Positions 32,689 to 54,959 of a stretch of 64,000 nt of DNA are shown one piece after another. Source of the DNA: Spirochaetia bacterium. Its GTDB lineage: Bacteria; Spirochaetota; Spirochaetia; UBA9216. Positions within the stretch are counted from its first letter, which is position 1; each line of letters opens with the position of its first letter. The notes beneath the pieces were generated by a model that made no database searches, was not told the DNA's origin, and worked only from the letters and a program-made list of their open reading frames with translations. The position numbers and the translations under genes are program-made. The stretch lies in contig OZ223266.1 of NCBI GenBank assembly GCA_965140585.1, positions 1 through 64,000 of the forward strand, given 5' to 3'.

Positions 32689-32698
32689 GGAGATTAGA

Positions 32699-36022: not shown

Positions 36023-36285
36023 ATGTATACTATTGCTGCTGTTGAAGATAATGATGCTATCCGCGAAGCGGTTGTGTCCTACCTGAATCTTGAAGAGTGT
36101 TCCGCAGTTGAATTTCCCTGCTGCACCGGCGTTATTGAACATCTTAACTCAAATAATGTTAAGAATTAATGTACTGCTTCGCCGTACAAACAGGAAGCTC
36201 GTTTCTTCCGGGGCATGAGCTTTTCGTGGATAGAAACCTTAAGATGTTACGGTTACTGCTTCTGCGGCACGCCATCAGCCGACTG
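36023..36285 (+). pseudogene. OmpR-type response regulator relic (termini only)
   Basis: GGAG RBS followed by MYTIAAVEDNDAIREAVVSYL...*, then the C-terminal-like segment WIETLRCYGYCF. Confidence 0.7.
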
Positions 36286-36667: not shown

Positions 36668-36717
36668 TCTCAATTTGAAATTTCAATATGTAATGCAATA
36701 TGAAATGTAAATTGAAA
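36668..36717. promoter_or_regulatory. Candidate upstream activator sequences for the sigma54 activator
   Basis: Tandem CA-N3-TG(A/T)AA dyads TCTCAatttGAAA, TTTCAataTGTAA and ATGCAataTGAAA, about 120-160 bp upstream of the -24 box. Confidence 0.55.
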
Positions 36718-36824
36718 ATAAATTTTTAAAAATCGTATCAAGTAATTTCCCCTGAAAAAATTATAAAAGTATAAATCCCCATATAGCAATAAAATAAAAG
36801 TACATGAAATTTTCTTTTAGTTAC

Positions 36825-36840
36825 TGGCACGGTATTTGCA
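36825..36840 (+). promoter_or_regulatory. sigma54 (-24/-12) promoter
   Basis: TGGCAC-ggtat-TTGCA, the exact consensus and spacing, 48 bp before the first gene. Confidence 0.92.
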
Positions 36841-36888
36841 ATAAGAACAATACTAATTTAATAGTTTATCTATGGAAGGTGCTATACA

Positions 36889-37767
36889 GTGAATGTAGGG
36901 TTTATAGGCTTTGGTGAAGCAGCATATTATGTTTCTATGGGTCTGAAGGATGAAGGCGTATCCGGAATTGTTGCTTACGATGCAATGCTGGAGCATCCTG
37001 TTGCCGGAAAGAAAATAAAACAAAGAGCACAGGAAAGCCGGGTTAAACTGCTTGTTTCTCCGGCAGATACGGTAGATACGACCGATTTCCTTTTTGTCGC
37101 AGTCCCTGCTGTGAATGCTCAGGATGTATGCAATGAAATTACTCCATTTCTAAAAGCAGGGCAGCTGTATATTGATGTGAGCGCTTCGACACCTAAAGTT
37201 AAAGAATCATTTGAAAAAATGGTAGAGAAATCGGGCGCACTATACGTGGATGCCGCTATGCTTGGTTCTCTTCCTCTGAACAGGCATAAGGTTCCCATAA
37301 CAGCCAGCGGAATCGGCGCTGAAAAATTCAAGGAAATAATGTCCAAGAAGGGTATGAATATCACCTGTGTCGGTTCTCAGGCTGGATCAGCCTCGGCAAT
37401 CAAGCTTATACGAAGTGTTTTCATGAAAGGTATTGCAGCACTCATGCTTGAAATGCTTGAAGGTGCTTATAGGTATGATGTGATCGATGAAGTTGTTTCT
37501 TCTCTCAGTGCATCTATGGATGGTATATCATTTGAAAGTCATTTAAAAAGACTTATTACGGGAACAGCTGTCCATGCAAAGAGGCGAGCCGAAGAATTGA
37601 ACGGCTCGGTTCAAATGCTGATGGATCGGAATGTAGATAATGAAATGGTTAAGGCATCAAAATATAAACATGAATATCTTGCCGAATGTCTATCAGGCGA
37701 ACAGGCGAAGGATGAGTATGAAGACATCCATTCAGTACTTGCTGCCATGAAGACAAAGCCGCAGTAA
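36889..37767 (+). CDS. NAD(P)-dependent beta-hydroxyacid dehydrogenase (6PGD/3HIBADH fold, DUF1932-type C-terminus)
   Basis: Motifs GFIGFGEAA, YVDAAMLG, ASAIKLIRSVFMKG and HAKRRAEE. Confidence 0.85.
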   Translation: MNVGFIGFGEAAYYVSMGLKDEGVSGIVAYDAMLEHPVAGKKIKQRAQESRVKLLVSPADTVDTTDFLFVAVPAVNAQDVCNEITPFLKAGQLYIDVSASTPKVKESFEKMVEKSGALYVDAAMLGSLPLNRHKVPITASGIGAEKFKEIMSKKGMNITCVGSQAGSASAIKLIRSVFMKGIAALMLEMLEGAYRYDVIDEVVSSLSASMDGISFESHLKRLITGTAVHAKRRAEELNGSVQMLMDRNVDNEMVKASKYKHEYLAECLSGEQAKDEYEDIHSVLAAMKTKPQ

Positions 37768-37778
37768 AAGGAGAGCTT

Positions 37779-38480
37779 ATGCCGGTTGGTAAACGAATTT
37801 ATTTAAAGAGGGATCTGCCTGATCCTGAATTGGTAGCACAATTTAACAGCATACCTGCTTCAAATTGTGCAGATGTTATGGAAAGATCATGTGCTATGAA
37901 TCCCCGGATCCGGCTTATGAGCAGTCCGTCCAGACAGTGTATTGCAGGACCGGCCTTCACTGTCAAGGCAAGGGCCGGAGACAATCTTCTTATCCATGCG
38001 GCTCTAAATCTTGTAAGTGAAGGTGATATGCTGGTTATTTCAAATGAAGGTGATCAGACCCGTTCACTTATTGGTGAGGTTATGCTTGCTTATCTCTTTT
38101 ATACAAAGAAAATTGCCGGTATTATACTTGACGGCCCGATACGGGATATCGATGAAGTCCACAGCTGGAATTTTCCAATATATGCTACCGGCACAACCCC
38201 GGGCGGACCTTATAAGGAAGGTCCGGGTGAGATAAATGTTCCAATCTCCTGCGGAGAAATCAGTGTAAATCCCGGAGATATTATTCTGACTGATCCGGAT
38301 GGTGTTATTGTGATTCCAAGAAAGGATGCAGAAGTAACTCTGGAGAAGGCAAAAGCTTTCCAGGTTCAGGATGAGAAAAAACTGGCTGCAGCTAAAGACG
38401 GAACTGCAAACAGAGAATGGGTTGGAAAGCTGCTTGATGAAAAAGGTTTTGAACTGATAGACGAAGTCTATCATCCGTGA
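37779..38480 (+). CDS. RraA/HMG-aldolase family protein
   Basis: Motifs GPAFTV, GDNL, IGEVM, DGPIRD and V.PGDII..D.DGVIVIP. Confidence 0.9.
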   Translation: MPVGKRIYLKRDLPDPELVAQFNSIPASNCADVMERSCAMNPRIRLMSSPSRQCIAGPAFTVKARAGDNLLIHAALNLVSEGDMLVISNEGDQTRSLIGEVMLAYLFYTKKIAGIILDGPIRDIDEVHSWNFPIYATGTTPGGPYKEGPGEINVPISCGEISVNPGDIILTDPDGVIVIPRKDAEVTLEKAKAFQVQDEKKLAAAKDGTANREWVGKLLDEKGFELIDEVYHP

Positions 38481-38525
38481 AGGTATCAAAATAAAAATTA
38501 AAATAAAAACTATGGAGGTTTTTTA

Positions 38526-39515
38526 ATGAAAAGGATTTTATCATTTTTACTGATCCTTACAGTAAGTGTCGCCCTGATGGTAAGCTGTTCTGCTAAGTCG
38601 GATAAGACTTCAGCGGAAACCACAACGGAAAAAGCGATAAGCGCTGCAGAAAACTGGCCCGAGCAGCCGATCAATATCCTGGTACCGGCTAAAGCAGGAG
38701 GTGGTTCTGATATTATAACAAGAATCATAACAAAATATATTACTCAGGAAACCGGACAGGCTGTTGTCGTAACCAATGTTACCGGGTTATCAGGTTATGA
38801 ACTGGTTCGAAAACAGGAGCCGAATGGATATAATTATGTTTTCGGAATCACTGGTTTGCTCATCTCGGCAGCCCAGGGGCAGCTTGAATTTGGACATGAA
38901 GCATTTGACGCGGCTTTTACGCCGGGTATGGATTCTTCAAATGGTATCCTTGTTCGCGGAGATTCTCCGTATAAGACTCTTAAAGATCTTTTTGATGCGA
39001 TTGAAAAAGATCCGGAAAGCGTAACAGGCGGTATCTCTATGACCGGTTACCCCTATCTTTGTAGTCTCGCTATAGAAGATGCTCTTGATATCGACATGTA
39101 TTGCATTGATGCTGGAAATACATCAGAAAGATCGGTTGCACTCTTGGGCGGTCAGGTAGATTTTATCATTTCAGGTATGGCTGCTATTACCGGATATCTT
39201 GATTCGGGTGATTTTCGATATCTCGCAATTACTGCAGAAGAAAGAAATAAATTCCTTCCCGATGTTCCTACTTTCAAAGAAAGCGGGTATGATTTCGCTT
39301 TTGTAGATCAGGGTGGATATCTTCTCGCTCCTAAGGGTACGGATCCTGCTATTCTCGAGAAATTCAACAAATTATTTTATGAGAAGATTCAGACTAACCC
39401 TGATTATCAGAAGGAAATGTCCAAATTTGGTATGATTGATGTAAAATATACACCAGATGAGCTGAAAGTTGAATTGGATCACGCAGCAGAAGTATTTAAG
39501 AAATACCTGCAATAA
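38526..39515 (+). CDS. tctC: Tripartite tricarboxylate transporter substrate-binding lipoprotein
   Basis: Lipobox MVSC; motifs WPEQPINILVPAKAGGGSD, LLGGQVD and PDVPTFKE. Confidence 0.9.
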   Translation: MKRILSFLLILTVSVALMVSCSAKSDKTSAETTTEKAISAAENWPEQPINILVPAKAGGGSDIITRIITKYITQETGQAVVVTNVTGLSGYELVRKQEPNGYNYVFGITGLLISAAQGQLEFGHEAFDAAFTPGMDSSNGILVRGDSPYKTLKDLFDAIEKDPESVTGGISMTGYPYLCSLAIEDALDIDMYCIDAGNTSERSVALLGGQVDFIISGMAAITGYLDSGDFRYLAITAEERNKFLPDVPTFKESGYDFAFVDQGGYLLAPKGTDPAILEKFNKLFYEKIQTNPDYQKEMSKFGMIDVKYTPDELKVELDHAAEVFKKYLQ

Positions 39516-39538
39516 AATAATTTTAAGGGATTTTTGAG

Positions 39539-40090
39539 ATGAAAAGCAAAATTGATAGTTTATTTTATAAGCTGGAAATTTATTTTTCTGCTTATCGGCT
39601 GATAGCACTCGGAATTATAATCGCATTGGTATCTCTTTTCATGTTGAATGAAACATCAGATTATGTTCAAAACGGAGGGCTTAATGTCGTCGATAATGCT
39701 GCTTTTGCTCCGCGCCTGATATTTAGCATTCTTTTTTTACTTGGGATTCTGATTTTTATTCAGGAATTGTTAAGGAATAAAGTCTTGCGAAAAGAGATAC
39801 TTAGCAGCGCCGTGGCAAAAGAAATAGTTGCAGGTAATCAAAAATCCCTGATTGTTCTGGGCAGTATATTGTTATTTATACTGCTCATGACTCAAATCGG
39901 CTTTATTTTGTCTTCAATAATTTATTTGATCTCTAATATGATCATAATGAATTCGAAGGAATCGAGAAATGTGAAAATGTACGCAATAATTGCAGTTATA
40001 GTTGCAGTTATAGTTTATTTTTGTTTTAAAGAATTTATCTATGTAAACCTGCCAATCGGGGCATTGTTTAAAGCAGTGTTGGGGAGATAA
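39539..40090 (+). CDS. tctB: Tripartite tricarboxylate transporter small subunit
   Basis: Hydrophobic; FAPR and GF..S motifs and C-terminal VNLP.G; lies between tctC and tctA. Confidence 0.82.
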   Translation: MKSKIDSLFYKLEIYFSAYRLIALGIIIALVSLFMLNETSDYVQNGGLNVVDNAAFAPRLIFSILFLLGILIFIQELLRNKVLRKEILSSAVAKEIVAGNQKSLIVLGSILLFILLMTQIGFILSSIIYLISNMIIMNSKESRNVKMYAIIAVIVAVIVYFCFKEFIYVNLPIGALFKAVLGR

Positions 40091-40091
40091 T

Positions 40092-41597
40092 ATGTTAGTT
40101 TCAACATTTTTAGGTTTAATGACACCGTTAAATATTACCCTGATGGTAGTTGGTGTAATCGTCGGTATTCTCTTTGGCGCAATTCCCGGATTGAGTTCAA
40201 CCATGGCGATCGCGTTGTTCCTGCCCGTCACCTTTGCGCTAGATGTGACAAGTGCCTTTGCACTTCTTATTGCCCTGTATATAGGCGGTGTTTCCGGGGG
40301 ATTGATTTCAGCTATTCTTATTAATATTCCCGGTTCGGCAATGTCGATAGCCACGACGTATGACGGTTCGCCAATGGCTGTAAAAGGTCATGCCCACAGG
40401 GCACTCGGAATAGGTATCGTTTTCTCAACACTTGGTACTATCGTGAGCCTCATTGTCCTTATTGCCGCTGCTCCTCCTCTTTCAAAGCTTACGATAAAGA
40501 TGAGTTCCTATGATTTCTTTGCGCTGACCCTGCTGTCGTTAACATTGATATCAGGAGTCTCCGGTAAGAATATGCTGCTTGGTTTATTATCCGGATTCAT
40601 GGGGCTTGCCATTGCGATGGTTGGTATCGCACCAATTGATGGAACGCCGCGTTTCACCTTCGGTGAAGTACAGCTGCTTAATGGATTTTCCCTGTTGCCA
40701 TCGGTTATTGGGTTATTTGCCGTAACTGAGATAATGAAGGCTGTCAGCAACGCTGATAAAAAATCGGAAGTAAAGGCTAAACCCGAAAAGGTCAGAGGCT
40801 TTGGGTTCTCTCTCCGGGAGTTTTTTGCTCAGGCAAAGAATTTTGTGATATCTTCTGTCATTGGAATAGTAATTGGATTTCTGCCGGGTATGGGTGGTTC
40901 CCTGGCTAACCAGGTTGCTTACGCGGCGGTGCAGAAGAACTCTAAGTACCCTGAGAAATTCGGAACTGGCATAATGGATGGTATAGTTGCATCGGAGACT
41001 TCGAATAACGCTTCCATAGGAGGCGCAATGATTCCCCTGCTTACGCTTGGTATTCCAGGTGATGGACCGACTGCGATGCTGCTCGGCGCATTTATGATCC
41101 ACGGGATTGTTCCAGGACCGCTTCTGTTTAAAACAAGCGGTTCGCTGGTAAATACAATCTTTGTAGCGTTGATTATATGTACTATTATTATGTTTTTCAT
41201 AGAATATTTCGGCTTACGGCTGTTTGTAAAGGCGTTGAATGTTCCAAAAGGCATACTCCTTCCGATTATACTGGTGCTATGCATTGTCGGTTCATATGCA
41301 AACAACAATAACATGTTTGATGTATGGACATTGCTGCTATTCGGTGTATTCGGTTTTTTGTTGTTTAAGATTGGAATACCAAGAGCACCGTTGGTTCTTG
41401 GCTTTGTTCTGGGGCCGTCAGTCGAAACAAATTTGCGGCGTGCAGTTCAGCACAGCCGGGGATCCATCATCCCTTTTCTGACCAGGCCCGTATGTGTAAC
41501 TTTGCTTACTCTGTGCCTTCTTATCATAGTTTTTGCATTTGTTTCTCAAATAAGGGCAGGTCGGGCAGAGAAGCGTGCAGCAGCTGCCGGAGAATGA
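40092..41597 (+). CDS. tctA: Tripartite tricarboxylate transporter large permease
   Basis: Motifs GAIPGLS, AILINIPG, ETSNNA and PLLTLGIPG. Confidence 0.93.
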   Translation: MLVSTFLGLMTPLNITLMVVGVIVGILFGAIPGLSSTMAIALFLPVTFALDVTSAFALLIALYIGGVSGGLISAILINIPGSAMSIATTYDGSPMAVKGHAHRALGIGIVFSTLGTIVSLIVLIAAAPPLSKLTIKMSSYDFFALTLLSLTLISGVSGKNMLLGLLSGFMGLAIAMVGIAPIDGTPRFTFGEVQLLNGFSLLPSVIGLFAVTEIMKAVSNADKKSEVKAKPEKVRGFGFSLREFFAQAKNFVISSVIGIVIGFLPGMGGSLANQVAYAAVQKNSKYPEKFGTGIMDGIVASETSNNASIGGAMIPLLTLGIPGDGPTAMLLGAFMIHGIVPGPLLFKTSGSLVNTIFVALIICTIIMFFIEYFGLRLFVKALNVPKGILLPIILVLCIVGSYANNNNMFDVWTLLLFGVFGFLLFKIGIPRAPLVLGFVLGPSVETNLRRAVQHSRGSIIPFLTRPVCVTLLTLCLLIIVFAFVSQIRAGRAEKRAAAAGE

Positions 41598-41599
41598 TT

Positions 41600-42415
41600 A
41601 TGGATATCACGGAAATTACAAAATTAACCAATAAGCGTCTTGCAGAACCATGGATTATAATGACAAAACCCTTCCATGTTGTAGGTAATATATATTTTGT
41701 TGGAACTTCCTGGGTATCATGTTTTCTTATTGAAACGGAAGAGGGCTTGATTTTAATTGATTGCGCTATGCAGGAAACAGCTTACCAGCTTATTGATGCC
41801 ATTCATCAGGTTGGGTTAAACCCGGGGAATATTAAGAAACTGTTTATTTCCCATGGTCATTTCGACCATTGCGGAGCAGCCCGAATTATTCAGGAAATGA
41901 CCGGTTGTGAGATTTGGCTCGGAAAAGACGATGAGTTCTTTTTCACAGAAAGACGGGATCTGATTCATTTTGAGCACACTGTTCCTGACTTTAAAATTAC
42001 CAATACCTATGATTATGATTCAGAATTTAATTTCGGAGGGACAATAATAAAGCCATTTCACTGCCCGGGGCATACTCCGGGTACAACCAGCTTTTTTATT
42101 GAAACCCAGAATGAAGGTAAAAATCTTACATGCGCAATGCATGGCGGGCTAGGCATTAATGGGATAAGTAAGCCTGAATTGATTGAAAACCGGCTGCCTG
42201 TGTCTCTTCATGATGATTACAGAAGGCAGCTTGAAGAAATGATGGAGAAGCATGTAGATATTGTTCTGCCTTCTCATGTAGGGCATGCTGTAGATTATGA
42301 TTTTCTGGGCCTTGGCTATGATACTTCCAGAGGCAGTGAAAAGTTTATTGATACGAATGCCTGGAGTAGAATGCTTTCATCCAAGCTGAAGCAGTTTGAG
42401 GAGAACTGCTGCTGA
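41600..42415 (+). CDS. MBL-fold metallohydrolase (B3-like)
   Basis: Motifs PFHVVGNIYFVG, SHGHFDHCG, PGHTPG and PSH; GGAG RBS before 41600; no signal peptide. Confidence 0.85.
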   Translation: MDITEITKLTNKRLAEPWIIMTKPFHVVGNIYFVGTSWVSCFLIETEEGLILIDCAMQETAYQLIDAIHQVGLNPGNIKKLFISHGHFDHCGAARIIQEMTGCEIWLGKDDEFFFTERRDLIHFEHTVPDFKITNTYDYDSEFNFGGTIIKPFHCPGHTPGTTSFFIETQNEGKNLTCAMHGGLGINGISKPELIENRLPVSLHDDYRRQLEEMMEKHVDIVLPSHVGHAVDYDFLGLGYDTSRGSEKFIDTNAWSRMLSSKLKQFEENCC

Positions 42416-42436
42416 TTTAGAATTACTGGAAAAACT

Positions 42437-43573
42437 ATGTTTGACTTACTTATCAAAAACGGAAATCTATTGATATCCGGACAAGATTCGCCTGGAAACA
42501 GCGATATCGGGATCTCAGGGAATAAGATTGTCAGAATTGGAAAAATCTCTGCAACTGAATCAAATCACGTAATTGATGCTTCAGATTGTATAGTCAGTCC
42601 AGGCCTTATCGATTTTCATTTACATCTGGCTCCGCTTGCTGAAATAGGAGTATGCGGAGAGGCTGCATGTTTTCCGTCTGGTGTAACAACGGTTGTAGAC
42701 TGCGGTAGTGCAGGGGCCGGAACTTATGCCGGGCACAGACCGGCAATAGCCGCCAGTTCTCTAAACGTTTTTACCTTTATGCATGTCTGTTCAGCCGGGC
42801 TTGCTACAGGCCGCTATCTGGAAAATCCGGACCCGAAGTACTATGACCTTGAAAAAATTAAAGAATATTTTGAAAAGTGGGGAAGCCGGGAGCTTATTGG
42901 TCTTAAAATCAGGCAGGGCAAAGAGATAGTCGGTTCTCTTGGTCTTGAGCCGCTTAAGAAAACTATTAGGCTTGCTGAAGAACTAAATGTTCCCGTAATG
43001 GTTCATTGCTCAAATCCGCCGGGTTCAATGGATGATATCCTCAACCTGTTGAGAAAGGGTGATATTTTTACACATGCCTTTCAGGACAAGGGCAGCAGCA
43101 TTCTCGGTACGGACGGACGGATATCTGAATCTGCTAAATCCGCAAGGGAGCGGGGTGTTATTTTCGATGTAGCAAATGCGAATATTCATTTCTCATTCGA
43201 GGTTGCAAGGCAGGCCATTTCAGAAGGATTTCTTCCGGATACCATCAGTACTGATTTAACCACCAGAAGCTTATATCTTCGTCCGAACGTTTTTAATTTA
43301 TTGCACGTCCTGTCAAAATACATAAGCCTTGGATTATCTGTCAGGCAGGTTTTTGATATGTGTACTGTGAACCCCGCAAAAATAATCGGAAAAGCCGGAG
43401 TTACGGCTTCCCTGAAAGAAGGCGCTGCTGCCGATATAGCGGTTATTCGTAATATAAAAAAGGATGTCATTTTTGGAGATAGAACTGGAAACACACTGAA
43501 GGGGAATTCGTTTCTAAAAACCATGGCTACAATAAAGGATGGAAAACTTGTCTATCGTGACCAGGAATTCTAA
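42437..43573 (+). CDS. Amidohydrolase/deacetylase (dihydroorotase-like, COG3964-type)
   Basis: Motifs PGLIDFHLH, GVTTVVDCGSAG, GLKIR, VMVH, TH and PDTISTD. Confidence 0.87.
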   Translation: MFDLLIKNGNLLISGQDSPGNSDIGISGNKIVRIGKISATESNHVIDASDCIVSPGLIDFHLHLAPLAEIGVCGEAACFPSGVTTVVDCGSAGAGTYAGHRPAIAASSLNVFTFMHVCSAGLATGRYLENPDPKYYDLEKIKEYFEKWGSRELIGLKIRQGKEIVGSLGLEPLKKTIRLAEELNVPVMVHCSNPPGSMDDILNLLRKGDIFTHAFQDKGSSILGTDGRISESAKSARERGVIFDVANANIHFSFEVARQAISEGFLPDTISTDLTTRSLYLRPNVFNLLHVLSKYISLGLSVRQVFDMCTVNPAKIIGKAGVTASLKEGAAADIAVIRNIKKDVIFGDRTGNTLKGNSFLKTMATIKDGKLVYRDQEF

Positions 43574-43623
43574 AAACAATAAACAAATAATTAGTTAACA
43601 GTGAATACCATAAGGAGAACGGC

Positions 43624-45462
43624 ATGAGTAAAAAGCCGAAACTGGTGTCAACTCTGGACTACACCATTAGAATAGGTGGAGAAGGAGGAGATGGAGTTAT
43701 AAGCTGCGGTGAACTTCTTGCACAGGCTGCTGCACGTACGGAATTTCATGTTTTTACTTTTATTACCTATCCGTCAGAAATGAGGGGCGGATTTTCCATG
43801 ATTCAGATAAGGTTGAGGGATATAACAATTTATTCCATGGGAAGCAGTGTGGATTGTCTGCTTGTCTTCAATCAGGAGGCACTTCAAAATACCCGATCGG
43901 TACTCAGGGAAGGTGGAGTTCTGATATATGATCCGGACACGGTTGATGTAAGTGATATGAAAGACTGTCAGCTCAAACCCGTTCCATTTACTGCTCTTGC
44001 CCGGGAGACCAATGGGGTTGTTCTTGGTAAGAACGTGGTTGCTCTTGGTACGCTGGGCAGCGTCCTGGGAATTGATAAAAATTTACTTCAGGATTTGCTG
44101 AAAGAAAAATTCGGGAAAAAGGGTGCTGGTGTTATAGAAAAGAACAATAAAGCCCTTCAGGCTGGAATGGATGCGGCAGCCAGAATTGATATGCCGGTAA
44201 ATTTCAGAATTACAGACCTGAAACCTGCCGGTGAAGATTATATGTTTATTAGCGGTAATCAGGCTGTGGCCCTCGGTGCTATTGCTGCCGGCTGCAGGTT
44301 TACAGCCGGATATCCGATAACCCCTTCTACATCAATTTTTGAAACCCTAACCAGACTTATGCCGCTTGTCGGCGGCAGGGCTATTCAGATGGAGGATGAG
44401 ATCGCTGCTATCAGTGCTGTGATTGGAGCTTCATTCGCCGGCGAAAAGGTTATTATACCAACCTCCGGACCGGGGCTGATGCTTATGACAGAGCAGCTTA
44501 GTCTTGCATCGATGATCGAAGTTCCGATGGTGCTTGTAGATGTACAGCGCGCCGGGCCTTCTACAGGTCTTCCTACAAAAACTGAACAGTCAGACCTTAA
44601 GTTTGCTGTTTATGGTGCGGCCGGGGACAGTCCAAGAATTATCATGGCGCCAACCACAGTGGAAGATACTTTCTATCAAACTATCAGGGCTTTTAATCTG
44701 TCAGAAAGATATCAGATTCCGGTAATTCTGCTTCTTGATCAGTCCATAGGATACCGGAAAGCAACTGTTAAAATGCCTAACTTTGATCAGATCAAAGAAC
44801 TTGATCAGATGGAGTGCTTTAAAAGTCTGCGTATTCCTCATGCCAATAAAATAGATCTCAGGCGAAGAAGGGAACCCGACTCAAATGATCTTGAAGATTA
44901 TAAGCGGTATCTTGATACCCCGGATGGAGTCAGTCCTATTGCAAGACCAGGTACTCCCGGAGGTCAGTATCTTGCTACCGGTCTGGAGCATGATGAATAC
45001 GGGCATACCGATCAATCACCACTTAATCATCAGAAAATGAGCCTTAAGAGATTCAGGAAGATGGAGGCAATCTCCAAAGAGTTTGAAAAAAACCCGATAG
45101 AGTTTTACGGCGATCCTGACGCAACAATTGGGGTTATTGGCTGGGGATCTACCGAGGGGGCTATCCGTGAAGCCAGATACATGGCTGAAAATAACGGTAT
45201 TAAAATTCGTCACCTCCATCCGCATACTATAAGTCCTCTTCCCCACAGGCAAATCTCCCTGTTTCTGGCAAGGCTGGATCATCTTATTGTAGTAGAAGAA
45301 AATCTTACCGGACAATTTACAAATTATCTTAAAGCCAAGTTCAGGATTAATCCTCAGAATATACGTAAATGTCAGGGTATACCTCTGACCGCAGAAGAAA
45401 TTTATGAAGGAATTGAAAAGGTAGCGAGGTTGGACAATGATGAACACAGTAAATTCTTTTAA
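43624..45462 (+). CDS. 2-oxoacid:ferredoxin oxidoreductase alpha subunit (gamma-alpha fusion, KorA-like)
   Basis: Motifs GGEGGDG, YPITP, QMEDE, TSGPG and QRAGPSTGLPT. Confidence 0.92.
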   Translation: MSKKPKLVSTLDYTIRIGGEGGDGVISCGELLAQAAARTEFHVFTFITYPSEMRGGFSMIQIRLRDITIYSMGSSVDCLLVFNQEALQNTRSVLREGGVLIYDPDTVDVSDMKDCQLKPVPFTALARETNGVVLGKNVVALGTLGSVLGIDKNLLQDLLKEKFGKKGAGVIEKNNKALQAGMDAAARIDMPVNFRITDLKPAGEDYMFISGNQAVALGAIAAGCRFTAGYPITPSTSIFETLTRLMPLVGGRAIQMEDEIAAISAVIGASFAGEKVIIPTSGPGLMLMTEQLSLASMIEVPMVLVDVQRAGPSTGLPTKTEQSDLKFAVYGAAGDSPRIIMAPTTVEDTFYQTIRAFNLSERYQIPVILLLDQSIGYRKATVKMPNFDQIKELDQMECFKSLRIPHANKIDLRRRREPDSNDLEDYKRYLDTPDGVSPIARPGTPGGQYLATGLEHDEYGHTDQSPLNHQKMSLKRFRKMEAISKEFEKNPIEFYGDPDATIGVIGWGSTEGAIREARYMAENNGIKIRHLHPHTISPLPHRQISLFLARLDHLIVVEENLTGQFTNYLKAKFRINPQNIRKCQGIPLTAEEIYEGIEKVARLDNDEHSKFF

Positions 45463-46297
45463 CAGGGAAGGGGTTAAGCCGGTATGGTGTCCGGGCTGCG
45501 GTGATTATGGCGTGCTTACGGCCCTTAAAAAGTCACTTGCCGAGCTGCAGCTTTCGCCTGAAGAAATCATGGTGATATCGGGTATAGGATGTTCTGGGCG
45601 GTTTTCTCACTACCTTAATACTTACAGCCTTCACGGTACTCACGGCAGGGCTCTTCCGACAGCTTGCGGGGCAAAGGCTGCCAGTCCGGAAATGACCGTG
45701 CTTGCAGTAGGCGGTGATGGAGACGGTTTGTCGATCGGCGGAGGCCATATAAGTCATACTGCAAGAAGGAATGCAAACATCACTTATCTTCTTTTAGATA
45801 ATCATATTTACGGACTCACAAAGGGGCAGACATCTCCAACTACTCCTGTCGGCTATCAGGGGAAAACCTCTCCGTATGGAGTGACAGAAGAAGAGCTGAA
45901 CCCGATACCGGTTTTTCTTACATATGGTGCTTCATTTGTAGCCCGGGGGCACAGTTTTGATATTAAGCAGCTTACACATCTCATTACAGAGGGGATAAAG
46001 CATCCCGGATTTTCAATTATCTATGTTCATTCGCCCTGTGTGACTCACCCTTCACTCGAATGGAAGAAGCTTAAAGAAAAGATCTGCAGTCTTCCTGAAG
46101 GATTTCCTGTTCAGGATATTATGACCGCCATGCCCTATGCTTTTTTAAAGGATAAGCTTTATACAGGAATATTCTACCAGGTCAGAAAGCCGACTTTGGA
46201 AGAGCGGCTGGTGGAGGTTCAGGAACGGGCTCTTGAAAGGCAGAAGGGCGAGGGGCTTGATGTTTCAGTCAGACATATTATGAACAGGTTCCGATGA
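45437..46297 (+). CDS. 2-oxoacid:ferredoxin oxidoreductase beta subunit (KorB-like)
   Basis: Motifs WCPGCG, SGIGCS, HGRALP, the ThDP motif GGDGD and SPCVT. Confidence 0.92.
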   Translation: MMNTVNSFNREGVKPVWCPGCGDYGVLTALKKSLAELQLSPEEIMVISGIGCSGRFSHYLNTYSLHGTHGRALPTACGAKAASPEMTVLAVGGDGDGLSIGGGHISHTARRNANITYLLLDNHIYGLTKGQTSPTTPVGYQGKTSPYGVTEEELNPIPVFLTYGASFVARGHSFDIKQLTHLITEGIKHPGFSIIYVHSPCVTHPSLEWKKLKEKICSLPEGFPVQDIMTAMPYAFLKDKLYTGIFYQVRKPTLEERLVEVQERALERQKGEGLDVSVRHIMNRFR

Positions 46298-46364
46298 TTT
46301 CGCAACGAAACAATATTGAGAACTTAAATTTATTCTTAACAGATTTTTATACAGGAGCGATTGT

Positions 46365-47732
46365 ATGAATACAGTTGAATATATTGCCGGATATATAGAA
46401 AGAGCTAGAAAAGCTCAGAAGGAATTTGAGGCCTGGTCGCAAGGGCAGGTGGATGAGGCCGTAAGGCTGATTGCAAAAGTGGTATATGATAATGCTGAAT
46501 ATCTTGCAGGGATGGCAGTAGCTGAAACCGAAATGGGAAATGTTCCTGATAAAATTCTAAAAAACAGAGGAAAGGCCGGTATAATCTGGAACAGTCTCAA
46601 AGGAAAAAAATCAAGAGGCATAATTAAGAGGGATGCGCAAACGGGAATTACTGAAATTGCAAAACCTGTCGGAGTAATTGCTGCAATTACTCCTTGTACA
46701 AACCCTGTTGTTACCCCGATGTGTAATGCAATGTTTGCGCTGAAGGGTGGAAACGCAGTGGTTATCACTCCCCATCATCGCTCATATAAAACAAGTGAAG
46801 AAACTGTCAGGCTTATAAATGAAGAACTGCAGAAGATTGGTGCTCCTGAAAATCTTGTTCAGATTGTTGATCATCAGTCCAGGGAAAATACCCGGGAGCT
46901 TATCTCTGCGGCAGATACTGTTGTGGCGACCGGGGGAATGAGTATGGTCAAGGCTGCATACAGCAGCGGAAAGCCGGCCCTTGGCGTTGGCGCGGGAAAT
47001 GTGCAGTGCATCATAGACCGGGATGTTGATTTCAGTGAAATGGTTCCAAAGATTGTTAACGGCAGAAGTTTCGACTATGGAATTATATGTTCGGGAGAGC
47101 AGACTGTAATTGTTCACGAAGAGGACCTGGATGCCGTCATGGAAGAGTTTAGAAAAAACAGCGGATATGTTGTTTTTGATGAACAGGAAGTTGGCTCCTT
47201 CCGGAAGGCTATATTCCCAAACGGTAAAATGAATCCTGATCTTGTTGGTCAGTCAACAGCAAGGGTGGCAGAACTGGCAGGTACTGAAATTCCTGAAGAT
47301 ACCAGAGTAATTCTGCTTAAAGCCGCCGGAGCGGGAAGAGAAGACTTTCTTTCCAAGGAAAAAATGTGCCCGGTGCTTTCAATTTATACATATAAAAATT
47401 TTGATGAAGCAATAGATATTGCAGAAGCAAATCTGGAATATGAAGGAGCCGGCCATTCTGTTTCGCTGCACAGCCACAGTGAAGAACATATTGAAGCGGC
47501 CGCTCTTAGGCTGAAGGCAAGTAGGTTTGTAATTAATCAGCCCTCTTCAACCAGCGCAGGCGGGAGCTGGTATAACGGTTTTTCTCCGACAACGACTCTG
47601 GGCTGCGGTTCGTGGGGGAATAACAGTATTTCTGAGAATCTGACATATACTCATATGATCAATGTTTCAAGAATCGGATATTTTATGAAAGATGCGGAAA
47701 TACCTTCAGAGGATATCCTTTGGAATAGTTAA
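46365..47732 (+). CDS. sucD: CoA-acylating aldehyde dehydrogenase, succinate-semialdehyde dehydrogenase-like
   Basis: TNPVVTPMCNAM, GIICSGEQ, KEKMCPVL and TTTLGCGSWGNNSISENLTY..INVSRIGYF closely recall clostridial SucD (not the succinyl-CoA synthetase sucD). Confidence 0.8.
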   Translation: MNTVEYIAGYIERARKAQKEFEAWSQGQVDEAVRLIAKVVYDNAEYLAGMAVAETEMGNVPDKILKNRGKAGIIWNSLKGKKSRGIIKRDAQTGITEIAKPVGVIAAITPCTNPVVTPMCNAMFALKGGNAVVITPHHRSYKTSEETVRLINEELQKIGAPENLVQIVDHQSRENTRELISAADTVVATGGMSMVKAAYSSGKPALGVGAGNVQCIIDRDVDFSEMVPKIVNGRSFDYGIICSGEQTVIVHEEDLDAVMEEFRKNSGYVVFDEQEVGSFRKAIFPNGKMNPDLVGQSTARVAELAGTEIPEDTRVILLKAAGAGREDFLSKEKMCPVLSIYTYKNFDEAIDIAEANLEYEGAGHSVSLHSHSEEHIEAAALRLKASRFVINQPSSTSAGGSWYNGFSPTTTLGCGSWGNNSISENLTYTHMINVSRIGYFMKDAEIPSEDILWNS

Positions 47733-47754
47733 AAATGCTAAGTTCATTTATTAT

Positions 47755-47782
47755 AAAGGCCGGGGTGATCCGGCCTTTTTTT
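47755..47782. terminator. Intrinsic terminator between the operon and the convergent activator
   Basis: AAAGGCCGG-ggtgat-CCGGCCTTTTTTT. Confidence 0.88.
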
Positions 47783-47794
47783 ATTCATGTGACA

Positions 47795-49720
47795 TCAGAT
47801 TTCTGAATTAAAAAGTTTTTCTTTTCTCCATAAAGTAGTAATGCTTATTCCAAGTATTGCGGCCGCCATTTCCCTGTTCCCTTTTGTCTGCTGCAGAACT
47901 TCAAGAATCAGTTTCTTTTCCATTGTTTTGAGCAGGCCTTCGGTTTGAGGCGTCGCATCTGAAATTGATTTTAGAAAGTCTGTTTTAAAGCTGTCTAAGC
48001 CTTGACTCGACTTTGCAGGCTGTTCGATAATATCTTCTCTTGAAGAAATTAATTCCGAAATAAGTTTTTCATCAATCTGATTTTTATTATTAAGAACATT
48101 TGCTCTTTCGGTAACATTCTTCAGCTGCCTTACGTTGCCGGGCCATGAATAGTTAGAGATGTATTTTTCAGCTTTTTCTGTTAGAAAATTGTAGTTTTGA
48201 AGATAATGGCTGAATAAGGCCGGAATATCTTCTTTTCTTTCCCTTAACGGGGGAATTTTCAGCTCGAGCACACAAATCCTGTAATATAAATCCTCTCTGA
48301 AATTGTTGTTTTTTACTTCTTCATAAAGATCTTTATTACATGCTGCAATTATTCTGATGTCGATAGGCACTATTCTGTTATCGCCTATTCGTGTTATCTC
48401 TTTTTCCTGAAGAACTCTCAGTAGTTTGGCCTGTACATCCGGTGGTATTTCTGTAATTTCATCCAGAAAAACCGTACCCCTATGAGCCTGTTCGAAGACC
48501 CCTGCTTTTCCTCCGGTTTTAGCTCCTGTAAAGGCTCCTTCAGCATATCCGAACAGTTCACTTTCGAGGATGCTTTTGGGAAGAGCTGCGCAGTTGATTG
48601 CAATAAAGGGGTTAAGCTTTCGTATGCTGTCGTTATGGATGCTTTGAGCAAACATCTCTTTTCCGGTTCCTGTTTCACCGGTAAGCAGGATTGTACTTTC
48701 TGTTTTAGCGTATAGCTTGGCAGTGTCGATAGTCTTATGGATTGTCTTTGATTCTCCAATTATATTTGAGAAGTTTATTTTTGCGTAATGACCTCTGCCT
48801 ATCTGCTTCTTTCTGATCTTTGAATCAATAATCTGTATATTGGTTTCTTCCTGTATCGATATGACGGCTCCGTTGATCTGATTATTGATGATTATAGGCA
48901 GACAGCTGTATACCAGCGAGAGCCTGTTGATTGTAATAAGCTCATCATAAACTGGTTTTCCTGACTGAATGGTTTTTTGTATATTGGTTGTGTTTATTAA
49001 AGTCTCTATATAAGTTTTCTCTTCTTCGGCCTCACGCTGCAGCAGTGCTTTAGCTATTTTGTTGATATTCAGAATTTTCCCCGAGTTATCAATACCAATA
49101 ATCCCTTCAGAGGTGCTGTCCAGTAATGTTGAAATTAAACTGTACTGTTTTTCCCTTTCCTCTTCGACATATAGACTGTACAGAGCTTCGTCAATTGCAA
49201 GCTCAACTTCCGATTCATCAGGATAAATGGAATAGAAGGGCATGTTGTTGCTGATGCAGATTTCCCTTAATTGAAAACCTCCGATAAATGCTTCTGCGCC
49301 GATTTCTCTGGCTTTTGTAAAGGCATCTTTGAATTCTCTTGCATCATCAACCTGAAACACCAGAAGTGATTCGTTCATTATGGAATTAAACTTATTAGCA
49401 ATATTGCAGAATTGTGAAAAACCTATTGCGGCAACCTTGTTATAACTTGTACTTGTCTTTCTGACAGCCAGGAAAAAACTAAGAAAACTGTGTCTGATAT
49501 CGATGATTGGCATATCAAGATTTTCTCTAAGCAGTGCCGCGCTTCCTCCCCGGCAGACAAGAACTTTTGTTCCGTTTTTCTGACATTCCTTAGCTTTTTC
49601 AAGAGCCGTATGAGTGGTTAGTTCATAAACAGGTATTCCGGATATCTGCAGCTTATTTAATACATATTCACAACTTTGAGACATACCAGGGGTAGTTGAA
49701 AATATGACTATTTTATTCAT
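47795..49720 (-). CDS. PrpR-type sigma54-dependent activator (PrpR_N-PAS-AAA+-HTH)
   Basis: VCRGGSA in PrpR_N; PAS; GETGTGKE, ESELFG, GAFTGA and WPGNVRQL; Fis-type HTH. Confidence 0.93.
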   Translation of the reverse strand: MNKIVIFSTTPGMSQSCEYVLNKLQISGIPVYELTTHTALEKAKECQKNGTKVLVCRGGSAALLRENLDMPIIDIRHSFLSFFLAVRKTSTSYNKVAAIGFSQFCNIANKFNSIMNESLLVFQVDDAREFKDAFTKAREIGAEAFIGGFQLREICISNNMPFYSIYPDESEVELAIDEALYSLYVEEEREKQYSLISTLLDSTSEGIIGIDNSGKILNINKIAKALLQREAEEEKTYIETLINTTNIQKTIQSGKPVYDELITINRLSLVYSCLPIIINNQINGAVISIQEETNIQIIDSKIRKKQIGRGHYAKINFSNIIGESKTIHKTIDTAKLYAKTESTILLTGETGTGKEMFAQSIHNDSIRKLNPFIAINCAALPKSILESELFGYAEGAFTGAKTGGKAGVFEQAHRGTVFLDEITEIPPDVQAKLLRVLQEKEITRIGDNRIVPIDIRIIAACNKDLYEEVKNNNFREDLYYRICVLELKIPPLRERKEDIPALFSHYLQNYNFLTEKAEKYISNYSWPGNVRQLKNVTERANVLNNKNQIDEKLISELISSREDIIEQPAKSSQGLDSFKTDFLKSISDATPQTEGLLKTMEKKLILEVLQQTKGNREMAAAILGISITTLWRKEKLFNSEI

Positions 49721-50432: not shown

Positions 50433-50491
50433 GCATTTAAGCTTGGTAATAGACAAACTAGAAAAATAAGTAAATTTCTTTATCCGAATCA

Positions 50492-54955: not shown

Positions 54956-54959
54956 CGTT

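What the first reader, a model, noticed from the sequence alone, without database searches (positions are those of the whole stretch)
36668..49720. Intact sigma54/PrpR-controlled 10-gene operon: candidate unknown anaerobic catabolic pathway for an acylated or cyclic hydroxy-carboxylate
Seen: tandem UAS-like dyads and a perfect -24/-12 promoter, then a dehydrogenase, RraA-type aldolase/decarboxylase, TctCBA, an MBL-fold hydrolase, a COG3964-type amidohydrolase, OFOR alpha/beta and a SucD-like CoA-acylating dehydrogenase, a terminator and a convergent PrpR-type activator. All are uninterrupted despite decay on both flanks. Known: TTTs import carboxylates, RraA-fold enzymes cleave 4-hydroxy-2-oxoacids or decarboxylate oxaloacetate, and OFOR and SucD both yield acyl-CoA. 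Inference: import, then ring-opening or deacylation by the two hydrolases, NAD(P) oxidation, retro-aldol cleavage to a 2-oxoacid plus an aldehyde, and conversion of each fragment to acyl-CoA. I know no described pathway with this gene set.
Basis: partly seen in the sequence, partly recalled or inferred. Interest (0 to 1): 0.75.

Follow-up and report, generated by a model that had tools for sequence, protein, structure and literature searches.

The report
Mosaic sigma-54 carboxylate catabolic operon
A spirochaete carries an intact ten-gene, sigma-54-controlled operon whose conserved core (a carboxylate importer, metal hydrolases, an uncharacterised dehydrogenase and an oxaloacetate-decarboxylase-like enzyme) recurs in other anaerobes and has no described function, while its last three genes were found only in this genus.

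Summary
Ten tightly spaced + strand genes (36889-47732) follow the only exact TGGCAC-N5-TTGCW site in the window, end at a terminator, and face a convergent PrpR_N/PAS/sigma-54 activator.

The ten genes are not one conserved pathway. In other Sphaerochaetaceae and in metagenomes the recurring unit is the DUF1932 dehydrogenase plus the RraA-like enzyme. A TctCBA transporter and a COG3964 amidohydrolase often join them, and an MBL-fold hydrolase does so in some loci. The 2-oxoacid:ferredoxin oxidoreductase (OFOR) alpha/beta and the SucD-like gene accompany this unit only in this genus: 0 of 79 metagenome loci and 0 of 2 sister genomes.

Close RraA relatives elsewhere sit beside an aspartate aminotransferase, an Ldh/Mdh-family gene with citrate lyase, or a D-2-hydroxyacid dehydrogenase. 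That points to oxaloacetate-type decarboxylation. In the two sister genomes the core operon lies inside a citrate lyase/aconitase/isocitrate dehydrogenase island.

SucD keeps the succinyl-binding residues of the Clostridium kluyveri enzyme. OFOR and SucD therefore more likely act in series (2-oxoglutarate to succinyl-CoA to succinate semialdehyde) than in parallel.

The substrate is unknown, and no paper found describes the set. This is a new variant of known kinds, of moderate interest.

The parts
36671..36712 (.). Candidate activator-binding region (UAS): perfect palindrome TTGAAATTTCAA (36675-36686) plus imperfect direct and inverted copies with a TGAAAT core
   Evidence: the repeat finder. 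A related 18-nt-arm inverted repeat with a TGAATTTCA/TGAAATTCA core in L025, similar repeats in L012, and TGAAAT repeats in L065.
36825..36840 (+). Sigma-54 -24/-12 promoter, TGGCACGGTATTTGCA
   Evidence: Only exact TGGCAC-N5-TTGCW site in the window. TGGCAT-N5-TTGCT, -GTGCG and -CTGCT sit at the same place in L012, L025 and L065. One rpoN in the genome.
36889..37767 (+). NAD(P)-dependent dehydrogenase, DUF1932 + 6PGDH-type NAD-binding domain (distant beta-hydroxyacid dehydrogenase relative); substrate unknown
   Evidence: Pfam. The best solved structures are all uncharacterised: 3qsg, 4ezb, 1i36. Atlas clusters carry only generic names.
37779..38480 (+). RraA-like class II pyruvate aldolase / oxaloacetate decarboxylase family enzyme
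   Evidence: PF03737 at 1.3e-40; PRK06201 227 bits against a cut-off of 231. Aligns to 3NOJ with Arg-123/Asp-124, Asn-71, His-75, Gly-144 and Lys-147 conserved (residue roles from PMC5065237). Contexts of relatives.
38526..39515 (+). TctC solute-binding lipoprotein of a tripartite tricarboxylate transporter
   Evidence: PF03401. N-terminus MKRILSFLLILTVSVALMVSC. Best solved structure is BugD, 101 bits.
39539..40090 (+). TctB small membrane subunit
   Evidence: PF07331.
40092..41597 (+). TctA large membrane subunit
   Evidence: PF01970 at 6e-142.
41594..42415 (+). Cytoplasmic MBL-fold di-zinc hydrolase, B3-like but not a beta-lactamase by score. Start revised from 41492.
   Evidence: NF033105 150 bits against a cut-off of 240. 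HGHFDH plus later His residues, and no signal peptide. A 51% identical gene occupies the same TctA-MBL-Amido slot in L065.
42437..43573 (+). COG3964-group binuclear amidohydrolase-superfamily hydrolase (esterase, lactonase or amidase)
   Evidence: PRK12394 392 bits against 442. HxH, K157, H190, H213 and D268 invariant in 78 homologues. Model pLDDT 95. Z 55 to 8je0, 50 to 8wzy, 49 to 2ics, 48 to 2ogj, against about 29 for dihydroorotases.
43624..45462 (+). 2-oxoacid:ferredoxin oxidoreductase alpha subunit (gamma-alpha fused, two-subunit KorAB type)
   Evidence: TIGR03710 628 bits, above cut-off. Best PDB match 6n2n, 429 bits. Single copy in G000; no orthologue in G338 or G339.
45437..46297 (+). 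2-oxoacid:ferredoxin oxidoreductase beta subunit (TPP-binding)
   Evidence: TIGR02177 273 bits, above cut-off.
46365..47732 (+). SucD-like CoA-acylating succinate-semialdehyde dehydrogenase / succinyl-CoA reductase
   Evidence: 8cei (C. kluyveri SucD) 537 bits. Lys66, Lys70, Cys242, Ser243, His364 and Thr395 (as T396) conserved (residue roles from PMC10249356).
47755..47778 (+). Intrinsic terminator between the convergent operon and the activator gene
   Evidence: 10-pair stem, 6 GC pairs, then a T run (sequence).
47795..49720 (-). PrpR_N-PAS-AAA+(sigma-54)-HTH_8 enhancer-binding activator
   Evidence: Pfam. GAFTGA and Walker A read. TIGR02329 335 bits against 499, so not a PrpR equivalog. 65% identical orthologues sit next to the core operon in L012 and L025, and a 49% identical one in L065/L066.

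Best explanation
This is a mosaic catabolic operon driven by one sigma-54 promoter and a PrpR_N-type activator.

Core module (inferred functions):
- The TctCBA transporter imports a di- or tricarboxylate.
- The COG3964 amidohydrolase, here together with a cytoplasmic MBL-fold hydrolase, opens or de-acylates the imported compound.
- The DUF1932 dehydrogenase oxidises the freed 2-hydroxy group (less likely an amino group) to give an oxaloacetate-type 2-oxo-3-carboxy acid.
- The RraA-like enzyme decarboxylates that product to pyruvate, or for a tricarboxylate to 2-oxoglutarate.

The dehydrogenase and RraA-like enzyme together would act as a 'split' oxidative decarboxylase, analogous in function to malic enzyme or to tartrate or isocitrate dehydrogenase.

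Add-on in this genus (inferred): a KorAB-type 2-oxoacid:ferredoxin oxidoreductase and a SucD-type enzyme were added downstream. They most likely act in series, 2-oxoglutarate to succinyl-CoA to succinate semialdehyde.

Shown: gene content, operon structure, promoter, conservation pattern, catalytic residues.

Inferred: every substrate, the order of steps, and the direction of SucD.

The substrate class I favour is a conjugated or lactonised member of the malate/citrate/isocitrate family.
For: Operon and regulation:
- Tight spacing, a single exact -24/-12 site and a terminator.
- Sigma-54-type promoters and TGAAAT-core repeats are conserved upstream of the orthologous operons.
- rpoN is present once in the genome.
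- The activator carries GAFTGA.
- The same ten genes and the convergent activator occur in the sister species G001.

Conserved core (tblastn at E<=1e-8 and at least 50% query cover):
- Of the 79 metagenome loci with a dehydrogenase hit, 40 are at least 46% identical to the window's dehydrogenase.
- RraA lies within 8 kb in 27 of those 40.
- Among the 18 with at least 3 kb on both sides: RraA in 16, TctA in 9, the amidohydrolase in 7, a PrpR-type activator in 3, the MBL in 1.
- OFOR, SucD, CitE, CitXG and monomeric IDH: 0 of 79.
- Several of these loci are near-duplicates, so the counts overstate independence.
- L065 repeats the order PrpR, DH, RraA, TctC, TctB, TctA, MBL, amidohydrolase.
- L012 and L025 have DH, RraA, TctCBA, amidohydrolase, PrpR without OFOR or SucD.

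RraA as an oxaloacetate-type decarboxylase. Relatives 54-74% identical sit next to:
- a dicarboxylate symporter plus a class I/II aminotransferase (L018, L021);
- an Ldh/Mdh-family gene, a DASS transporter and citrate lyase genes citC and citE (ORFs in the citD and citF positions were not scanned) in one string (L017);
- LysR plus a D-2-hydroxyacid dehydrogenase, with a TehA/SLAC1 transporter in L013 (L013, L014).
The catalytic Arg-Asp pair and Asn-71, His-75 and Lys-147 equivalents are kept.

Link to the citrate family:
- In G338 and G339 the core operon lies between citXG and aconitase, monomeric IDH and citDEFC.
- The transporter is of the tricarboxylate type.

Serial reading of the add-on:
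- SucD scores 537 bits to C. kluyveri SucD, with the residues that bind the distal carboxylate conserved.
- OFOR alpha's best solved relative is 6n2n, which I recall to be a 2-oxoglutarate enzyme.
- JGI names for 60-71% identical homologues are 'korA'.
Against: - There is no biochemical or expression evidence for any step.
- The dehydrogenase family has no characterised member.
- The RraA-like enzyme keeps every aldolase residue I could check, so 4-hydroxy-2-oxoacid cleavage is not excluded. The Thr-145 and Arg-195 equivalents differ, and the Glu-199 alignment is ambiguous.
- In 2 of the 18 well-flanked loci the dehydrogenase has no RraA nearby. Where it is missing, an HMGL-like lyase (L053) or nothing recognisable takes its place.
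- The citrate-lyase neighbourhood is seen only in two related genomes. G000 and G001 have no CitF at all.
- If plain citrate were the substrate, neither hydrolase nor the dehydrogenase would be needed.
- M20 peptidases, an Asp/Glu racemase-family gene, and amino-acid-fermenting hosts of the amidohydrolase homologues hint instead at an amino-dicarboxylate conjugate.
- The OFOR's substrate cannot be read from sequence.
- The genome has two further SucD paralogues, 69% and 49% identical.
Confidence: 0.45

Rival explanations
1. The RraA-like enzyme is a retro-aldolase that splits a 4-hydroxy-2-oxoacid made by the dehydrogenase into pyruvate and an aldehyde-acid. OFOR and SucD then work in parallel: pyruvate to acetyl-CoA, and succinate semialdehyde to succinyl-CoA.
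For: - The family's type enzymes are aldolases, and the catalytic residues are kept.
- SucD specificity for a succinyl group would fit succinate semialdehyde as the aldehyde fragment.
- Where RraA is missing next to the dehydrogenase, an HMGL-like lyase can stand in its place (L053).
- An aldolase paired with a beta-hydroxyacid-dehydrogenase-type reductase is a known pairing, GarL/GarR (recalled).
Against: - Close RraA relatives lie next to an aminotransferase, an Ldh/Mdh-family gene with citrate lyase, or a D-2-hydroxyacid dehydrogenase, all of which make or use oxaloacetate.
- OFOR and SucD are absent from every other locus that carries the core, so they cannot be obligatory handlers of its products.
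- I know of no natural 2,4-dihydroxy-dicarboxylate substrate that fits.
Confidence: 0.2
2. A plain citrate/tricarboxylate utilisation locus. TctCBA imports citrate. The RraA-like enzyme is the soluble oxaloacetate decarboxylase that partners citrate lyase in the sister genomes. This genus lost the lyase and routes citrate through aconitase and isocitrate dehydrogenase encoded elsewhere, then through OFOR and SucD. The dehydrogenase and the hydrolases have side or regulatory roles.
For: - In G338 and G339 the operon is embedded in a citXG / aconitase / IDH / citDEFC island. In G339 the second MBL gene is 10 nt upstream of citD.
- L017 puts RraA in one string with citrate lyase genes.
- G000 has aconitase-family and Iso_dh-family genes elsewhere.
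Against: - No citrate lyase, CitXG or monomeric IDH appears in any of the 79 metagenome loci.
- G000 and G001 have no CitF.
- This reading leaves the two most tightly linked genes' partners, the dehydrogenase and the amidohydrolase, without a task.
Confidence: 0.15
3. An amino-dicarboxylate version. The hydrolases release aspartate, or a related amino acid, from an N-acyl, cyclic or peptide conjugate. The dehydrogenase oxidises the C-N bond to give oxaloacetate, which the RraA-like enzyme decarboxylates.
For: - M20 peptidases lie next to the module in L034, L058 and L061, and an Asp/Glu racemase-family gene in L052.
- The best solved relative of TctC is BugD, which I recall to be an aspartate binder.
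- Amidohydrolase homologues come from amino-acid fermenters: Synergistales, Acidaminobacter, Fusobacterium.
- In L018 and L021 an aminotransferase is paired with RraA.
Against: - I know of no amine- or imine-oxidising member of the DUF1932 family.
- The M20 genes lie in separate transcription units.
- The TctC match to BugD is weak, 101 bits.
Confidence: 0.12
4. The ten genes are not one transcription unit. OFOR alpha/beta and SucD form an independent operon that merely landed downstream.
For: - The block is specific to this lineage.
- The two largest gaps, 50 and 67 nt, flank it.
Against: - No terminator-like hairpin lies in either gap, and neither gap contains any of the listed sigma-70-like hits.
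- The strong terminator comes only after SucD.
- The arrangement is conserved at 95-98% protein identity in G001.
Confidence: 0.08

Closest known systems
HMG/CHA aldolase-oxaloacetate decarboxylase (LigK/GalC/ProA; Pseudomonas putida F1, PDB 3NOJ)
   Same: Same fold family (PF03737). Arg-123/Asp-124, Asn-71, His-75 and Lys-147 equivalents are present. The known secondary activity, oxaloacetate decarboxylation (PMC5065237, passages read), is the one proposed here.
   Different: Scores lie far below the LigK equivalog cut-offs: 114 against 304.5, and 128 against 179. There are no protocatechuate or gallate cleavage genes nearby. The host is an anaerobe. The partner is a DUF1932 dehydrogenase.
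One-protein oxidative decarboxylases of malate-type acids (malic enzyme, D-malate/tartrate dehydrogenase DmlA with the LysR regulator DmlR, isocitrate dehydrogenase) - recalled, not tested
   Same: The proposed net reaction: a 2-hydroxy-dicarboxylate or -tricarboxylate goes to a 2-oxoacid, CO2 and NAD(P)H. LysR is the usual regulator of the DH-RraA pair in metagenome loci.
   Different: Here the reaction would be split between two unrelated proteins. There is no homology to those families.
Citrate fermentation loci (citCDEFXG plus an oxaloacetate decarboxylase and a citrate carrier)
   Same: In G338, G339 and L017 the RraA gene lies with citrate lyase genes and a carboxylate transporter.
   Different: The window's genome has no CitF. 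The decarboxylase is RraA-like, not OadGAB or CitM. There is an extra dehydrogenase and extra hydrolases.
COG3964 amidohydrolases (PDB 2OGJ, 2ICS/EF_0837, 8JE0, 8WZY)
   Same: Same structural subgroup: Z 48-55 against about 29 for dihydroorotases. The binuclear-metal ligands are conserved.
   Different: Only 27-38% identity. The one activity I recall for this group (Atu3266, i.e. 2OGJ, hydrolysing acetyl-(R)-mandelate and other alpha-acyloxy acids; Ornelas et al. 2013) could not be read here. The PDB titles of 8JE0 and 8WZY say only 'a novel amidohydrolase'.
Clostridium kluyveri SucD with a KorAB-type 2-oxoglutarate:ferredoxin oxidoreductase
   Same: 537 bits to 8CEI with Lys70, Ser243 and Thr395 conserved. 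OFOR alpha scores 429 bits to 6N2N.
   Different: The two are fused onto a transporter/hydrolase operon. No 4-hydroxybutyrate dehydrogenase or CoA-transferase gene lies beside them. The direction of flux is unknown.
PrpR (2-methylcitrate-responsive activator of prpBCDE; ligand recalled) and PrdR
   Same: PrpR_N sensor, AAA+ sigma-54 domain and HTH_8, with a -24/-12 promoter and upstream dyads.
   Different: Below both equivalog cut-offs: 335 against 499, and 375 against 795. It controls no prp or prd genes.

Membership tests
HMG/CHA aldolase / oxaloacetate decarboxylase (LigK, TIGR02798; PRK09262) | Score at or above the curated equivalog cut-off | tested here: not met
   TIGR02798 114.4 against 304.5; NF006731 128.2 against 179.
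HMG/CHA aldolase / oxaloacetate decarboxylase (catalytic class) | Essential Arg-123 and metal ligand Asp-124 | tested here: met
   R122-D123 align with R123-D124 of 3NOJ. Residue roles from PMC5065237.
HMG/CHA aldolase / oxaloacetate decarboxylase (catalytic class) | Second metal ligand Glu-199 | tested here: inconclusive
   phmmer places Q197 opposite E199, with D198-E199 adjacent. The alignment is loose in this region.
RraA, regulator of RNase E | Score above the RraA equivalog cut-off, and loss of the catalytic motif | tested here: not met
   NF006875 81 against 136; TIGR02998 46 against 241. The catalytic R-D pair is present.
RraA-like subfamily PRK06201 | Score at or above the cut-off | tested here: inconclusive
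   227 against 231 bits, full length.
Tripartite tricarboxylate transporter | TctA, TctB and TctC genes adjacent, with an exported binding protein | tested here: met
   PF01970, PF07331 and PF03401 in adjacent genes. TctC has a lipoprotein-type N-terminus.
Subclass B3 metallo-beta-lactamase | Score at or above the NF033105 cut-off, and an export signal | tested here: not met
   149.8 against 240. No signal peptide from the likely start. The HxHxDH motif is present, so it is a metal hydrolase of the fold, not a beta-lactamase by these tests.
COG3964 amidohydrolase group (PRK12394/PRK09237/EF_0837) | Binuclear-metal ligands (HxH, Lys, His, His, Asp) and a fold closest to 2OGJ, 2ICS and 8JE0 | tested here: met
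   Invariant H61, H63, K157, H190, H213 and D268. Z 48-55. The NCBIfam scores are below cut-off: 392 against 442, and 316 against 371.
Two-subunit 2-oxoacid:acceptor oxidoreductase (TIGR03710 / TIGR02177) | Score at or above the cut-off for both subunits | tested here: met
   628 against 483, and 273 against 262.
2-oxoglutarate-specific OFOR | Substrate specificity | not testable with these tools
   Best PDB match is 6n2n. The korA names of homologues are automatic.
SucD succinyl-CoA reductase | Catalytic Cys242 and His364, and distal-carboxylate ligands Lys70, Ser243 and Thr395 | tested here: met
   All are conserved in the alignment to 8CEI, with Thr365 replaced by Ser. Residue roles from PMC10249356.
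Acylating sulfoacetaldehyde DH (SauS) / acetaldehyde DH (EutE type) | Score at or above the equivalog cut-off | tested here: not met
   433 against 600, and 404 against 620.
PrpR, propionate-catabolism activator | Equivalog score, and control of prp genes | tested here: not met
   TIGR02329 335 against 499. There are no prp genes in the operon. Only the domain architecture is shared.
Sigma-54 dependent promoter | GG/GC elements with TGGCAC-N5-TTGCW spacing upstream of the first gene, an enhancer-binding protein with GAFTGA, and rpoN in the genome | tested here: met

The most novel reading that the evidence does not exclude
The DUF1932 dehydrogenase and the RraA-like enzyme form a previously unrecognised two-protein oxidative decarboxylase, a non-homologous counterpart of malic enzyme and of tartrate or isocitrate dehydrogenase. 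It is fed by a COG3964 esterase/lactonase and a dedicated carboxylate importer. Together they would define a recurrent anaerobic pathway for a conjugated or lactonised hydroxy-dicarboxylate or -tricarboxylate, for example acyl-malate, acyl-tartrate, or an isocitrate or hydroxycitrate lactone of plant origin. That would give the first physiological role to both DUF1932 and COG3964.
Probability: 0.25. Interest if true: 0.65.

Novelty: new variant of a known kind. Interest (0 to 1): 0.5.

Why it matters
- The dehydrogenase-RraA pair recurs. 40 of 79 metagenome loci carry a dehydrogenase at least 46% identical. Single 90%-identity clusters of the RraA-like protein hold up to 858 members, some of them named from Oscillibacter and Lawsonibacter.
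- No member of the DUF1932 family has a known function.
- For COG3964 I know of only one activity, and that from memory.
- Working out the substrate would annotate two dark families at once and would name a carboxylate that many anaerobes import and ferment.
- The locus also shows how a conserved catabolic core is re-plumbed by lineage. In sister Sphaerochaetaceae it sits inside a citrate lyase/aconitase/IDH island. Here it has an OFOR-SucD tail.
- This is a caution against reading every gene of one operon as one pathway.

Tried and rejected
- Literature. The Ornelas 2013 COG3964 paper is not held. 'cog3964', 'DUF1932', '8JE0' and 'Atu3266' gave nothing useful. No paper holds RraA, tripartite tricarboxylate and amidohydrolase together.
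- Structure. Folding the amidohydrolase without an alignment failed, pLDDT 34. The second fold worked, but the top PDB titles say only 'a novel amidohydrolase', so no substrate clue came of it.
- The Atlas search on the dehydrogenase gave only generic names.
- I looked for a 4-hydroxybutyrate route downstream of SucD. The genome has 3-4 HpaB/AbfD-family hits, but the one neighbourhood I annotated shows no 4-hydroxybutyrate dehydrogenase or CoA transferase. This was left open.
- The 69% SucD paralogue has an uninformative neighbourhood.
- Ideas considered and not pursued for lack of any test: opine or lactam substrates, pyrone dicarboxylates (PDC, chelidonate), N-acetyl-aspartyl-glutamate.
- A true beta-lactamase role for the MBL gene is rejected on score and on the missing signal peptide.

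Full report
**1. What is in the sequence**

Between 36889 and 47732 there are ten open + strand genes. A convergent gene occupies 47795-49720.

| Gene | Coordinates | Family evidence |
|---|---|---|
| Dehydrogenase (DH) | 36889-37767 | DUF1932 + NAD_binding_2 |
| RraA-like | 37779-38480 | PF03737 |
| TctC / TctB / TctA | 38526-41597 | PF03401 / PF07331 / PF01970 |
| MBL-fold hydrolase | ORF 41492-42415 | Lactamase_B |
| COG3964-type amidohydrolase | 42437-43573 | PRK12394, 392 bits against 442 |
| OFOR alpha / beta | 43624-46297 | both above the curated subfamily cut-offs |
| CoA-acylating aldehyde dehydrogenase | 46365-47732 | Aldedh |
| Activator | 47795-49720 (-) | PrpR_N, weak PAS, sigma-54 AAA+, HTH_8 |

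- Gaps between genes run from -26 to 67 nt. The three junctions I read show ribosome-binding sites and no hairpins.
- TGGCACGGTATTTGCA at 36825-36840 is the only exact TGGCAC-N5-TTGCW site in the 64 kb.
- A 10-pair terminator follows the last gene.
- The genome has one rpoN, and the activator carries GAFTGA.
- Upstream lie a perfect palindrome, TTGAAATTTCAA, and imperfect copies of it.
- One correction: the MBL gene most likely starts at 41594 or 41600, overlapping the TctA stop, and has no signal peptide.
- TctC starts with a lipoprotein-type signal.

**2. Whose genome, and how widely the set is kept**

The record titles of the nearest loci name Spirochaetia/Sphaerochaetaceae MAGs.

- A sister species, G001/L011, has all ten genes at 89-98% protein identity and the same convergent activator.
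- Two other Sphaerochaetaceae genomes, L012/G338 and L025/G339, have RraA at 83% identity. Their operon is DH, RraA, TctC, TctB, TctA, amidohydrolase, activator. It has no OFOR and no SucD, and a different MBL gene lies after the activator.
- Both also have a sigma-54-type promoter in the same place and related TGAAAT(T)TCA dyads.
- The dehydrogenase is rare in the phylum: 3 of 301 sampled genomes at E<=1e-20, two of them at only 31% identity.
- SucD-level matches at E<=1e-120 occur in 1 of 301 genomes, the window's own.
- The OFOR is single-copy in G000 and has no orthologue in G338 or G339.

**3. The conserved unit**

A scan of metagenome contigs with an alignment of five dehydrogenases returned 80 loci. 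I ran tblastn with the window's proteins at E<=1e-8 and at least 50% query cover.

- 79 loci have a dehydrogenase hit, and 40 of those are at least 46% identical.
- Among those 40, RraA lies within 8 kb in 27.
- Among the 18 with at least 3 kb on both sides: RraA in 16, TctA in 9, the amidohydrolase in 7, a PrpR-type activator in 3, the MBL in 1.
- OFOR alpha, OFOR beta, SucD, CitE, CitXG and monomeric IDH: none in any locus.
- Several loci are near-duplicates (for example L048/L049 and L061/L063/L112), so these counts overstate independence.
- L065 repeats the window's order up to the amidohydrolase, including a 51% identical MBL in the same slot, and has a TGGCAT-N5-CTGCT promoter.
- Elsewhere the usual regulator is a divergent LysR. 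The transporter can be CitMHS/DASS or DcuC instead of TctCBA. An HMGL-like lyase can stand where RraA is missing (L053), and M20 peptidases and an Asp/Glu racemase-family gene occur nearby.

The ten genes are therefore a mosaic. There is a tightly linked dehydrogenase-RraA pair, often joined by an importer and a COG3964 hydrolase. In this genus alone there is also an OFOR-SucD tail.

**4. What the RraA-like enzyme probably does**

- It aligns with the P. putida HMG/CHA aldolase (3NOJ). The essential Arg-123, the metal ligand Asp-124, and Asn-71, His-75 and Lys-147 are conserved. The Thr-145 and Arg-195 equivalents differ, and Glu-199 is ambiguous (roles from passages of PMC5065237).
- That enzyme also decarboxylates oxaloacetate (same paper).
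- In 11 of the 15 genome loci, relatives lack the dehydrogenase. I annotated 7 of those 11. In five of them the RraA gene sits beside one of the following:
  - a dicarboxylate symporter and a class I/II aminotransferase (L018, L021);
  - an Ldh/Mdh-family gene, a DASS transporter, an alpha/beta hydrolase and citrate lyase genes citC and citE in one string (L017, Lactobacillus kalixensis; ORFs in the citD and citF positions were not scanned);
  - LysR and a D-2-hydroxyacid dehydrogenase, with a TehA/SLAC1-type transporter in L013 (L013, L014).
- Of the other two, L023 showed no recognisable neighbour, and L024 pairs RraA with a TRAP transporter, an Amidohydro_2 protein, DUF6282, PIG-L, LysR and a distant OFOR.
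- Oxaloacetate is the metabolite those three settings share.

By analogy, the DUF1932 dehydrogenase would make an oxaloacetate-type acid from a malate-type one. This is inference. The dehydrogenase family has no characterised member.

**5. The citrate neighbourhood**

- In G339 the order is citXG (opposite strand), monomeric IDH, the core operon with its activator, a second MBL gene, then citD, citE, citF and citC.
- In G338 aconitase and IDH sit between that MBL gene and citDEFC.
- G000 and G001 have no CitF and no monomeric IDH. They do have aconitase-family and Iso_dh-family genes elsewhere.
- This ties the core to tricarboxylate metabolism in the family. It is seen in only two related genomes.

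**6. The tail**

- The last gene scores 537 bits against C. kluyveri SucD (8CEI). It keeps Cys242, His364 and the three residues that hold the distal carboxylate: Lys70, Ser243 and Thr395 (roles from PMC10249356, abstract and passages).
- OFOR alpha is closest to 6N2N at 429 bits. I recall 6N2N to be a 2-oxoglutarate enzyme.
- Homologues 60-74% identical occur in other spirochaetes and in several other phyla, and they carry automatic korA names.

A serial reading, 2-oxoglutarate to succinyl-CoA to succinate semialdehyde, fits these facts. It also fits a tricarboxylate substrate whose oxidative decarboxylation yields 2-oxoglutarate.

**7. The hydrolases**

- The amidohydrolase has all the binuclear-metal ligands.
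- A confident model falls in the COG3964 subgroup: Z 48-55 to 8JE0, 8WZY, 2ICS and 2OGJ, against about 29 for dihydroorotases.
- The only activity I recall for that group is hydrolysis of alpha-acyloxy acids by Atu3266. I could not read that paper here.
- The MBL protein keeps the HxHxDH motif but scores far below the B3 beta-lactamase cut-off and looks cytoplasmic. I do not read it as a resistance gene.

**8. Verdict**

It is an intact sigma-54 operon of unknown substrate, but it is not a conserved ten-gene pathway.
- The chemistry more likely runs: import, hydrolysis, oxidation, oxaloacetate-type decarboxylation. A genus-specific 2-oxoglutarate to succinate-semialdehyde branch is added on.
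- No expression data could be found; no RNA holder was listed.
- I found no paper that describes the set. Subscription journals are mostly outside the library that was searched.

Noticed in passing
window 49938-51617: Three gene remnants in a row: a GntR regulator with only part of its FCD domain, the last third of an ABC ATPase, and a 3-hydroxyacyl-CoA dehydrogenase C-terminal domain on its own. Upstream, at about 36024-36170, a short frame reads like the start of a response-regulator receiver domain (read; not scanned).
   Followed up: partly
window 31522-33745: Two adjacent URO-D-family genes (uroporphyrinogen-decarboxylase-like or methyltransferase-like) follow a sugar-type ABC transporter and a LacI regulator. 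Function not examined.
   Followed up: no
L127 (G000:C6:566000-585999): A second sigma-54 activator-controlled cluster in the same genome: class III aminotransferase, a 49% identical SucD paralogue, a LarA-like protein, an aldehyde:ferredoxin oxidoreductase and a TRAP transporter. It looks like another uncharacterised acid-catabolic operon.
   Followed up: partly
L025 9106-10059: The dehydrogenase frame in this relative runs 59 nt into the RraA gene, with a lysine/arginine-rich tail that the other four orthologues lack. This could be a real extension or an assembly error.
   Followed up: no
protein P0241: A 279-residue database protein is 81% identical to half of the amidohydrolase and carries both amidohydrolase and Lactamase_B Pfam hits. 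This suggests a fused or frameshifted MBL-amidohydrolase call in a close relative.
   Followed up: no
G338 and G339: Both sister genomes carry two copies of the monomeric isocitrate dehydrogenase. In G338 both copies are paired with an aconitase; for G339 no adjacent aconitase was seen. One copy lies in the citrate island and one elsewhere.
   Followed up: no
L024 and L036: DUF6282 proteins recur next to RraA-like genes. In L024 they sit with a TRAP transporter, an Amidohydro_2 protein, a PIG-L deacetylase and a distant OFOR. In L036 they sit with the DH-RraA-amidohydrolase-TctCBA set and a CitMHS carrier.
   Followed up: no
window 54708-56201: The listed LarA-like ORF overlaps the end of the 6-phosphogluconate dehydrogenase gene by about 250 nt. 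Its Pfam match begins only at residue 104, so the true start is probably later.
   Followed up: no
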